Virus genome (UHGV): UHGV-0360783
Reading direction: 5' to 3' (one strand)
Source of the DNA: a virus
DNA: 23,936 bases
The notes under the pieces are model-generated. The model ran no database searches and was not told where the DNA came from. It saw only the letters and a program-made list of their open reading frames with translations. A program made the position numbers and the translations under genes. Each line of letters begins with the position of its first letter. Position 1 is the first letter of the stretch. This document shows positions 16,161 through 16,400 of this stretch, piece after piece.

Positions 16161-16400
16161 TGTTCATTCCACGGCCAAAAACAGAGAAAGGAAACGACAA
16201 AGGCCCAAAAGTTCGTTTTCAGCACCTGTCGTTTCCTTTCTTTTCAGGGGGTATTTTAAATAAAAACATTAAGTTACGACGAAGAAGAACGGAAACGCCT
16301 TAAACCGGAAAATTTTCATAAATAGCGAAAACCCGCGAGGTCGCCGCCCCGTAACCTGTCGGATCGCCGGAAAGGACCCGTTGGCCGTTCTGGTCTACTT
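16161..16400. other. cos packaging site: cosN 12-nt cohesive-end sequence at 16338-16349, with cosB toward Nu1 and cosQ on the other side
   Basis: Plus-strand AGGTCGCCGCCC at 16338-16349 is the reverse complement of GGGCGGCGACCT, the lambda cohesive end. Flanking sequence (rc) ...ATCCGACAGGTTACG GGGCGGCGACCT CGCGGGTTTTCGCTATTTATGAAAATTTTCC matches the lambda cos junction as I remember it. Confidence 0.85.

What the first reader, a model, noticed from the sequence alone, without database searches (positions are those of the whole stretch)
16161..16400. Internal cos site joining an intact packaging and morphogenesis module
cosN (16338-16349) lies inside the window, with the right-arm genes (lysis cassette, bor) and the left-arm genes (Nu1, A onward) contiguous across it. 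That is the joined-ends arrangement expected for an integrated prophage or a circular/concatemeric replicating form, not a packaged linear genome. All structural genes from Nu1 to I have full-length ORFs of the expected lambda sizes, so this is not a remnant like K-12 DLP12 and may be inducible.
Basis: partly seen in the sequence, partly recalled or inferred. Interest (0 to 1): 0.45.

Follow-up and report, generated by a model that had tools for sequence, protein, structure and literature searches.

The report
Lambda-type cos site in DLP12-family prophage
This is an ordinary phage lambda DNA-packaging (cos) site, in its joined form, inside a complete-looking relative of the E. coli K-12 DLP12 prophage; it is textbook biology, and the one small oddity is a unique amino-acid change in the enzyme that cuts the site.

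Summary
The 12-base lambda cohesive-end sequence lies at 16338-16349 on the minus strand. It sits in a 260-bp stretch that aligns with joined lambda cos. All known subsites are in lambda order and spacing: cosQ, cosN, R3, the I1 region, inverted R2 and R1, then Nu1.

All head and tail genes from Nu1 to I are uninterrupted and 81-100% identical to lambda proteins. The lysis genes and a bor/iss gene lie directly across cos.

The window is the first 23,936 bases of a 29.8-kb metagenome contig that carries phage DNA only. Near-identical copies (99.7%) sit in E. coli chromosomes at the DLP12 site, with integrase and att repeats, so this is the undegraded form of DLP12. The same cos allele (100%) occurs in PhiR26_1, a phage recorded as grown on K-12.

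Inducibility cannot be tested here. One caveat is that the terminase large subunit carries a private P503L change at a near-invariant proline in its nuclease domain.

Verdict: already known, low interest.

The parts
16373..16379 (-). cosQ (GGGTCCT), the 7-bp element needed to terminate packaging
   Evidence: Identical to lambda 48473-48479 in the alignments. Homology to lambda starts only 2 bp outside it. The role is taken from PMC4669245.
16338..16349 (-). cosN cohesive-end 12-mer GGGCGGCGACCT. Inferred nicks lie between 16350|16349 on the minus strand and 16337|16338 on the plus strand.
   Evidence: Single exact match, found in 0 of 100 shuffles. Aligned to the lambda ends. Nick positions are inferred from lambda and were not measured.
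16301..16337 (-). cosN-to-R3 spacer, identical in sequence and length to lambda bp 13-49
   Evidence: One search shows no difference and no indel. The importance of the cosN-R3 distance is taken from PMC9026076.
16285..16300 (-). R3, a terminase small-subunit binding site (lambda bp 50-65)
   Evidence: 16/16 identical to lambda, and the motif is matched. It includes bp 56, 58 and 59, which PMC4669245 calls critical. Coordinates are from PMC9026076.
16242..16284 (-). I1 region between R3 and R2 (IHF bending site). An IHF-consensus-like match lies at 16259-16271.
   Evidence: There are two substitutions against lambda (bp 74 and 103) and no indel. The match AATAAAAACATTA has one mismatch to the consensus, but such matches are not enriched across the window.
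16226..16241 (+). R2, a terminase small-subunit binding site, inverted relative to R3 and R1
   Evidence: 16/16 identical to lambda bp 109-124. Motif matched. Inverted repeats with R1 and R3 are reported.
16185..16200 (-). R1, a terminase small-subunit binding site
   Evidence: 15/16 identical to lambda bp 151-166, with C151T at the outer edge. The same base is present in phage PhiR26_1.
15615..16160 (-). Nu1, terminase small subunit (nohD allele)
   Evidence: 181 aa, 179/181 identical to lambda, differing at A72S and L132I. Pfam Phage_Nu1, E = 3e-100.
13715..15640 (-). A, terminase large subunit. It carries the private substitution P503L (codon at 14132-14134).
   Evidence: 641 aa, 638/641 identical to lambda. 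Pfam GpA_ATPase and GpA_nuclease. P503L is documented.
8389..13718 (-). Head genes: W 13512-13718, B 11914-13515, C/Nu3 10614-11933, D 10272-10604, E 9191-10216, FI 8754-9149, FII 8389-8742
   Evidence: All uninterrupted and at lambda lengths, except FI at 131 aa against 132. Identity to lambda is 89-99.8%.
940..8377 (-). Tail genes: Z 7799-8377, U 7407-7802, V 6659-7399, G 6221-6643, T frame 5805-6239 (slippery GGGAAAG at 6239-6245), H 3251-5812, M 2925-3254, L 2227-2925, K 1479-2222, I 940-1581
   Evidence: No internal stops and lambda lengths. The slippery site is conserved. I is 81% identical, with a divergent patch at about 1197-1382.
1..879 (-). 5' part of J, cut by the window end
   Evidence: tblastn gives lambda J residues 1-293 at 98.6%. 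The full 1131-aa J is present on the source contig.
16380..16828 (.). Short right-end segment between cosQ and bor/iss, not homologous to lambda. It contains a 51-aa ORF at 16504-16659 (+).
   Evidence: Lambda, DLP12 and PhiR34_1 carry 0.4-1.3 kb of other sequence here (ybcV, ybcW, ylcI). A similar right end is found in phage 2B8 at 94.5% and in 308 E. coli genomes. The ORF has no Pfam or NCBIfam hit.
16829..17122 (+). bor/iss lipoprotein gene
   Evidence: Pfam Lambda_Bor, E = 4e-30. 90.7% identical to lambda Bor. The identical CDS in GMF065 is named Iss by RefSeq.
17154..18324 (-). Lysis cassette: S 18109-18324 (phage-21 type holin, 71 aa, MKSM dual start), R 17612-18109 (lysozyme with a hydrophobic N-terminus), Rz 17154-17615, and Rz1 embedded at 17213-17395
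   Evidence: Pfam Phage_holin_2_1, Phage_lysozyme and Phage_lysis. Rz and Rz1 are 98% identical to lambda.
21427..21804 (-). Q-family late antiterminator (quuD allele). It would drive late transcription through the lysis genes and across cos.
   Evidence: Pfam Phage_antitermQ, E = 2e-51. 97% nucleotide identity to the K-12 DLP12 ybcN-quuD block.

Best explanation
The region is a lambda-specificity cos site in its uncut, joined form. It lies in the late operon of a Lambdavirus genome of the DLP12 lineage, and the DNA was most likely sampled as a prophage in an E. coli chromosome.

The mechanism is the established lambda one and is inferred by homology. After induction and rolling-circle replication, Nu1 dimers bind R3, R2 and R1, with IHF bending I1. 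This positions the nuclease domain of gpA to nick cosN 12 bp apart, at 16349|16350 and 16337|16338. The Nu1-proximal end is then packaged into proheads. cosQ together with the next cosN terminates packaging.

In the integrated or circular state the site is simply intergenic DNA between the bor/iss side and Nu1, and Q-antiterminated late transcription reads through it.
For: Shown directly:
- The cosN 12-mer is an exact, unique match.
- A 260-bp collinear alignment to joined lambda cos has cosQ, cosN, R3 and R2 identical and R1 at 15/16.
- There are three R motifs with R2 inverted, against an expected count of 0.01.
- Nu1 is 179/181 and gpA 638/641 identical to lambda.
- All head and tail ORFs are intact and the G-T slippery site is conserved.
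- The 220 bp from cosQ to the Nu1 start are 100% identical to phage PhiR26_1, whose record lists K-12 MG1655 as host. Members of the same PhiR panel were plaque-assayed in 10.1101/2025.11.03.685801.

Context:
- 1144 of 5426 complete E. coli genomes hold at least 80% of the window in one place.
- In the two best matches (99.7%) the element lies between argU/intD and ompT/envY. GMF065 also has att repeats, at least 47 bp long and 46.2 kb apart, and is collinear end to end with PhiR26_1.
- K-12 DLP12 retains the same cos, nohD and 5' end of A.

Subsite roles come from PMC4669245 and PMC9026076.
Against: - No cleavage, induction or read-termini data exist for this sequence.
- The source contig (ENA ERZ27316940 k141_49202) carries no int, att or host DNA, so integration is not seen directly.
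- gpA has P503L in its nuclease domain, at a proline conserved in 12 of 13 homologues down to 27% identity. The allele is absent from 4545 lambda-type A copies in 3209 E. coli genomes. The cognate enzyme may therefore be impaired.
- The IHF consensus match is no better than chance across the whole window.
Confidence: 0.85

Rival explanations
1. The cos site and genes are as described, but the DNA was not a prophage. It came from circular or concatemeric replicating phage DNA, or from virion DNA whose cohesive ends were joined by ligation or annealing or by the assembler.
For: The source is a metagenome contig of phage DNA only, with no host flank. Phage records in prophage order also show an internal cos, for example PV340555 and PV340559.
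Against: Near-identical copies (99.7%) are chromosomal in many isolates. Both contig ends fall in mosaic or repeated phage regions, as expected when a prophage assembly breaks. A free circular genome would tend to assemble completely. This weighs against the rival but does not exclude it.
Confidence: 0.12
2. This is an intact-looking but already defective prophage. cos and all ORFs are preserved, but packaging is dead because gpA P503L disables the nuclease or packaging function, or because of defects outside the contig. On this reading the cos site is never cut by its own enzyme.
For: Pro503 lies six residues after the invariant K497, in Pfam GpA_nuclease. It is conserved in 12 of 13 homologues. 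No E. coli genome copy and no phage record carries Leu. The allele recurs in 4 ENA contigs, so it is probably not a read error. An accessory AraC-family gene is also frameshifted.
Against: One missense change is weak evidence. Xanthomonas phage M29 has Gly at the aligned position. Differences from the nearest genome are mostly synonymous (16 of 23), which suggests purifying selection. The frameshifted gene is cargo and is not needed for growth.
Confidence: 0.25
3. The site belongs to a cos-bearing satellite (a PICI of the EcCICFT073 type) or a cosmid-like construct, not to a phage.
For: PICIs carry cosQ and cosN nearly identical to lambda (PMC9026076).
Against: PICI cos sites lack R sequences and are followed by rpp. 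Here R3, R2 and R1 are present, followed by full Nu1, A and the whole morphogenesis module. No vector sequence is present.
Confidence: 0.01

Closest known systems
Phage lambda cos (cosQ-cosN-cosB) with the Nu1/A terminase
   Same: The cohesive-end 12-mer, cosQ, R3 and R2 are identical. The subsite order, orientation and cosN-R3 spacing are the same. Nu1 is 98.9% and A 99.5% identical.
   Different: There are seven substitutions and a 1-bp deletion, all in spacers except C151T at the edge of R1. The sequence outside cosQ is unrelated to the lambda right end. gpA carries P503L.
E. coli K-12 cryptic prophage DLP12 (argU site)
   Same: It has the same late-region gene set: ybcN-ninE-ybcO-rusA-ylcG-quuD at 97% and essD-rrrD-rzpD-borD at 94%. 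The cos, nohD and 5' end of A are the same at 97.9%. The nearest complete genomes carry the element at the same chromosomal site.
   Different: DLP12 is deleted from within A onward and has IS insertions. The window keeps all head and tail genes. Between Q and S, DLP12 has nmpC, whereas the window has lipocalin, YbgA-family and AraC-family genes. ybcV, ybcW and ylcI are absent here.
Phages PhiR26_1 (PV340555) and PhiR34_1 (PV340559), recovered from ECOR strains
   Same: They have the same genome architecture from intD-type integrase to tail fibres (and ompT in PhiR26_1). The cos allele is 100% (PhiR26_1) or 99.1% (PhiR34_1) identical. The structural module is 96.6-97.4% identical.
   Different: They carry a porin gene (OmpD/NmpC) between Q and S and a longer right end next to cosQ. 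Their gpA has Pro503.
Phage 21 lysis cassette (S21 pinholin with SAR endolysin)
   Same: The holin is 71 aa, matches Pfam Phage_holin_2_1 and has the MKSM dual start. The lysozyme is 165 aa with a hydrophobic N-terminal segment.
   Different: It was not compared directly with the phage 21 sequence. Packaging specificity here is lambda type, not 21 type.

Membership tests
Lambda-type cos site | 12-base 5' cohesive-end sequence at cosN matching lambda | tested here: met
   GGGCGGCGACCT is an exact match at 16338-16349(-), found in 0 of 100 shuffles.
Lambda-type cos site | Conserved 7-bp cosQ at the lambda distance upstream of cosN | tested here: met
   GGGTCCT lies at 16373-16379(-), with the same spacing as lambda 48473-48479.
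Lambda-type cos site | cosB with three R sequences in the order R3-I1-R2-R1, with R2 inverted, between cosN and the small-subunit gene | tested here: met
   There are three motif copies at 16286-16297(-), 16230-16241(+) and 16185-16196(-), and nowhere else in the window. Inverted repeats are reported. The definition is from PMC9026076.
Lambda-type cos site | IHF site I1 between R3 and R2 | tested here: inconclusive
   The segment is near-identical to lambda (2 substitutions, no indel) and contains a 1-mismatch consensus match. Consensus matches are at the chance level across the window, and binding was not tested.
Lambda-type cos site | Cognate terminase genes (Nu1 with lambda-type recognition domain, and A) immediately downstream | tested here: met
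   Nu1 is 179/181 and A 638/641 identical to lambda. Pfam Phage_Nu1, GpA_ATPase and GpA_nuclease.
Lambda-type cos site | Cleavage by terminase to give 12-nt cohesive ends | not testable with these tools
   This needs lysate termini sequencing or an in vitro cos-cleavage assay.
DLP12-lineage lambdoid prophage | DLP12 late-region gene set and cos/nohD allele | tested here: met
   Identity to K-12 DLP12 blocks is 97.0%, 93.8% and 97.9%.
DLP12-lineage lambdoid prophage | Integration at tRNA-Arg(argU) by an intD-type integrase | not testable with these tools
   The source contig has no int or att. The feature is met in the two nearest genomes: both sit at the argU/intD-ompT site, and att repeats were found in GMF065.
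Inducible (viable) prophage | Release of infectious particles after SOS induction | not testable with these tools
   Only indirect evidence is available. The ORFs are intact and the cos allele is identical to that of PhiR26_1, a phage recorded as grown on K-12 MG1655. Against this stands gpA P503L.
cos-bearing PICI satellite | cosQ and cosN without R sequences, followed by rpp, with no morphogenesis genes | tested here: not met
   R3, R2 and R1 are present, along with the full Nu1-J module.

The most novel reading that the evidence does not exclude
The phage lineage sampled here may have been caught at the first step of domestication. Every ORF and the whole cos site are intact, but the terminase nuclease domain carries P503L at a near-invariant proline. 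On this reading the prophage can no longer cut its own cos. It could still be packaged by, or supply cos and structural genes to, a co-resident lambda-specificity phage.
Probability: 0.2. Interest if true: 0.2.

Novelty: already known. Interest (0 to 1): 0.08.

Why it matters
It matters little. The lambda cos site and its terminase are among the best-studied DNA-packaging systems. Intact DLP12-type prophages are common in E. coli, with 1144 of 5426 complete genomes holding most of this window. The practical value is in annotation: the contig can be labelled as a lambda-specificity cos phage of the DLP12 lineage that carries an iss/bor serum-resistance allele. The P503L allele offers a cheap natural test of a conserved but unstudied proline in the gpA nuclease domain.

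Tried and rejected
- Rfam at gathering threshold and ARAGORN found nothing in the window.
- Promoter and terminator scans around cos gave nothing above shuffle levels.
- The first tblastn of lambda K gave two HSPs in different frames, which looked like a frameshift. This was my error: I started the lambda K translation at the wrong base (14133). Using the 247-aa K of PV340536, the window K is intact, 240/247 identical.
- I tried to find the source with a 32-mer spanning the P503L codon. It gave no match in genome contigs, viral contigs or metagenome contigs. The exact-protein look-up then found the source in ENA.
- A look-up with the L protein was too broad to help, returning 1260 blocks.
- No solved structure matched gpA by sequence, and no open paper mentions gpA K497. 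The structural role of Pro503 therefore remains unknown.
- I considered a PICI or cosmid origin and rejected it on gene content.
- The truncated xis-like pseudogene annotated next to intD in the relatives is not good evidence against excision. The isolated phages PhiR26_1 and PhiR34_1 also have no annotated xis.

Full report
**1. Observation**

The 12-base lambda cohesive-end sequence GGGCGGCGACCT occurs once in the window, at 16338-16349 on the minus strand. None of 100 dinucleotide-preserving shuffles contains it.

It is not an isolated 12-mer. Window 16381..16121, read on the minus strand, aligns collinearly with the lambda right end (48471-48502) joined to the left end (1-230). There are 7 substitutions and one 1-bp deletion.

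The flagged interval 16161-16400 runs from the base before the Nu1 start codon (ATG at 16160) to just beyond cosQ. It therefore covers the whole cos region.

**2. Anatomy**

Subsite definitions come from Feiss and co-workers (PMC4669245; PMC9026076). In window coordinates the subsites are:

| Subsite | Window coordinates | Lambda equivalent | Match to lambda |
|---|---|---|---|
| cosQ (GGGTCCT) | 16373-16379 | 48473-48479 | identical |
| cosN 12-mer | 16338-16349 | bp 1-12 | identical |
| cosN-R3 spacer | 16301-16337 | bp 13-49 | identical in sequence and length |
| R3 | 16285-16300 | bp 50-65 | 16/16, including bp 56, 58 and 59, which are called critical |
| I1 region | 16242-16284 | between R3 and R2 | 2 substitutions, no indel |
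| R2 (inverted) | 16226-16241 | bp 109-124 | 16/16 |
| R1 | 16185-16200 | bp 151-166 | 15/16; the change is at the outermost base |

- An IHF-consensus-like match lies at 16259-16271, inside the I1 region.
- The core R motif CGTTTCCKTTCT occurs exactly three times in the 23.9-kb window, all in cos and with the middle copy inverted. The expected count is 0.01. The repeat finder recovers the R1/R2 and R2/R3 inverted pairs.
- The IHF consensus match is not statistically meaningful on its own, with 15 matches found against 15.9 expected in the window. The case for I1 rests on near-identity with lambda.

**3. Surroundings**

All phage genes run on the minus strand.

- Downstream of cos lie Nu1, A, W, B, C/Nu3, D, E, FI, FII, Z, U, V, G, T, H, M, L, K and I, followed by the first 293 codons of J.
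- Each gene from Nu1 to K has a start codon, a stop codon, no internal stop and the lambda length, except FI at 131 aa against 132. Identities to lambda run from 89% to 100%.
- I is intact but carries a divergent patch, giving 81% identity overall.
- The G-T frameshift heptamer GGGAAAG is at the lambda position.
- Upstream of cos, across a 450-bp segment with no lambda homology, lies a bor-family gene on the plus strand, then Rz/Rz1, R and S.
- S and R are of the phage-21 kind: a 71-aa holin matching Pfam Phage_holin_2_1, and a 165-aa lysozyme with a hydrophobic N-terminus. They are not lambda S105 and transglycosylase.
- Further up are three cargo genes, a Q-family antiterminator, and the rusA-ybcO-ninE-ybcN block.

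**4. What it belongs to**

- The window is 96-97% identical over most of its length to many Lambdavirus-type phages.
- It is 99.7% identical to chromosomal prophages of E. coli strains 1517k and GMF065. In total, 1144 of 5426 complete E. coli genomes hold at least 80% of it in one place.
- In both best-matching genomes the element lies between tRNA-Arg(argU)/intD and ompT-envY-nfrA. This is the site of the K-12 cryptic prophage DLP12.
- In GMF065 a direct repeat of at least 47 bp of the argU 3' end flanks a 46.2-kb element.
- K-12 DLP12 shares three blocks with the window: the ybcN-quuD block (97.0%), the essD-borD block (93.8%), and cosQ through nohD into the first 282 bp of A (97.9%). Beyond that point DLP12 is deleted.
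- The window is therefore the undegraded form of the DLP12 lineage.

**5. Evidence that this cos allele works**

- The 220 bp from cosQ to the Nu1 start are 100% identical to phage PhiR26_1 (PV340555) and 99.1% identical to PhiR34_1.
- Both phage records list E. coli K-12 MG1655 as the propagation host and are in prophage order, beginning with an intD-type integrase.
- PhiR26_1 is collinear with the GMF065 prophage from one att repeat to the other, including ompT.
- The spacer differences from lambda, including the 1-bp deletion between R2 and R1 and the edge change in R1, are thus present in a viable phage.

**6. Source of the window**

An exact-protein look-up with gpA found ENA metagenome assembly ERZ27316940, contig k141_49202 (29,784 bp).

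- The window is the reverse complement of bases 1-23,936 of that contig, at 100% identity.
- One contig end lies upstream of ybcN and the other in the side-tail-fibre region. The contig carries no integrase, att site or host DNA.
- Integration is therefore inferred from relatives. It remains possible that the sample held replicating phage DNA or end-joined virion DNA, but this is less likely.

**7. A caveat on 'intact'**

- Relative to GMF065 the window has 61 substitutions and one 1-bp deletion.
- In the structural and lysis genes, 16 of 23 differences are synonymous.
- One nonsynonymous change is P503L in gpA (plus-strand base 14133).
- Pro503 lies six residues after the invariant K497 (…[14 protein letters not shown]…), within Pfam GpA_nuclease, which spans residues 322-600.
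- It is Pro in lambda, HK225, 3W, PhiR26_1 and PhiR34_1, and in 12 of 13 homologues down to 27% identity.
- A 65-nt probe across the codon has no exact match among 4545 lambda-type A copies in 3209 complete E. coli genomes. No phage record has an identical gpA.
- The allele is present on 4 ENA contigs, so it is probably real and not a read error.
- Its effect is unknown. It is the one specific reason to doubt that this copy can cut its own cos.

**8. Mechanism**

This is inferred by homology and not shown here. [quoted passage not shown] This positions the gpA nuclease to nick cosN 12 bp apart. The Nu1-proximal end is packaged into proheads, and cosQ with the next cosN terminates packaging. 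A 46-kb unit, as in GMF065, is about 95% of lambda length. From general knowledge of lambda packaging limits, this is a packageable size.

**9. Verdict**

The feature is a textbook element in a very common prophage family. It is already known and of low interest.

Noticed in passing
window 14132-14134 (codon 503 of gene A, minus strand): There is a private P503L substitution in the terminase large subunit nuclease domain. The proline is conserved in 12 of 13 homologues down to 27% identity. The allele is absent from 3209 E. coli genomes and all phage records, and was found only on 4 ENA metagenome contigs.
   Followed up: yes
window 18513-19244 (minus), deletion at 19121: An AraC-family regulator gene between Q and S is frameshifted by a T7 run where strain GMF065 has T8, leaving 44-aa and 195-aa ORFs. 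The same gene is split by an IS3-family element in strain 1517k, so this cargo gene has been inactivated independently at least twice.
   Followed up: partly
window 19595-21271: The cargo block between Q and the holin gene holds a YbgA-family protein (2-thiouracil desulfurase plus DUF1722 domains, minus strand) and a Blc-like outer-membrane lipocalin (plus strand). It occupies the slot where DLP12 and the PhiR phages carry the nmpC/OmpD porin.
   Followed up: partly
window 16829-17122 (+): The bor homologue differs from lambda Bor at 9 of 97 residues. It is identical to the protein that RefSeq names 'increased serum survival lipoprotein Iss' in strains GMF065 and 1517k. It gave no NCBIfam HMM hit.
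   Followed up: partly
window 16380-16470: A mosaic breakpoint lies 2-4 bp outside cosQ. Lambda, DLP12 and PhiR34_1 share one right-end sequence. The window has an unrelated, shorter one that lacks ybcV, ybcW and ylcI. The window's version is also seen in phage 2B8 (94.5%) and in 308 complete E. coli genomes. The cos unit from cosQ to Nu1 behaves as one exchange module.
   Followed up: partly
window 1197-1382 (gene I): A divergent patch in tail assembly gene I gave no megablast match to lambda and lowers overall protein identity to 81% with 10 gapped positions. The flanking K and J are 97-99% identical to lambda.
   Followed up: no
L021, L027, L028 at about 1-3700; L031 at about 1-2300: Other E. 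coli genomes carry identical L or H proteins. In these, a block encoding capsid-E-like, HDPD (gpD-like), AlpA and a 180-aa Nu1-like protein sits in place of the terminase and portal genes and next to a shortened E gene. This looks like a PICI-type satellite or a rearranged head region.
   Followed up: no
L002 (NC_001416) 14133-14875 compared with L003 (PV340536): The reference lambda record annotates K as 199 aa from 14276, whereas the resequenced lambda record and the window support a 247-aa K with an N-terminal JAB-like domain. This is an annotation difference, not a property of the window.
   Followed up: partly
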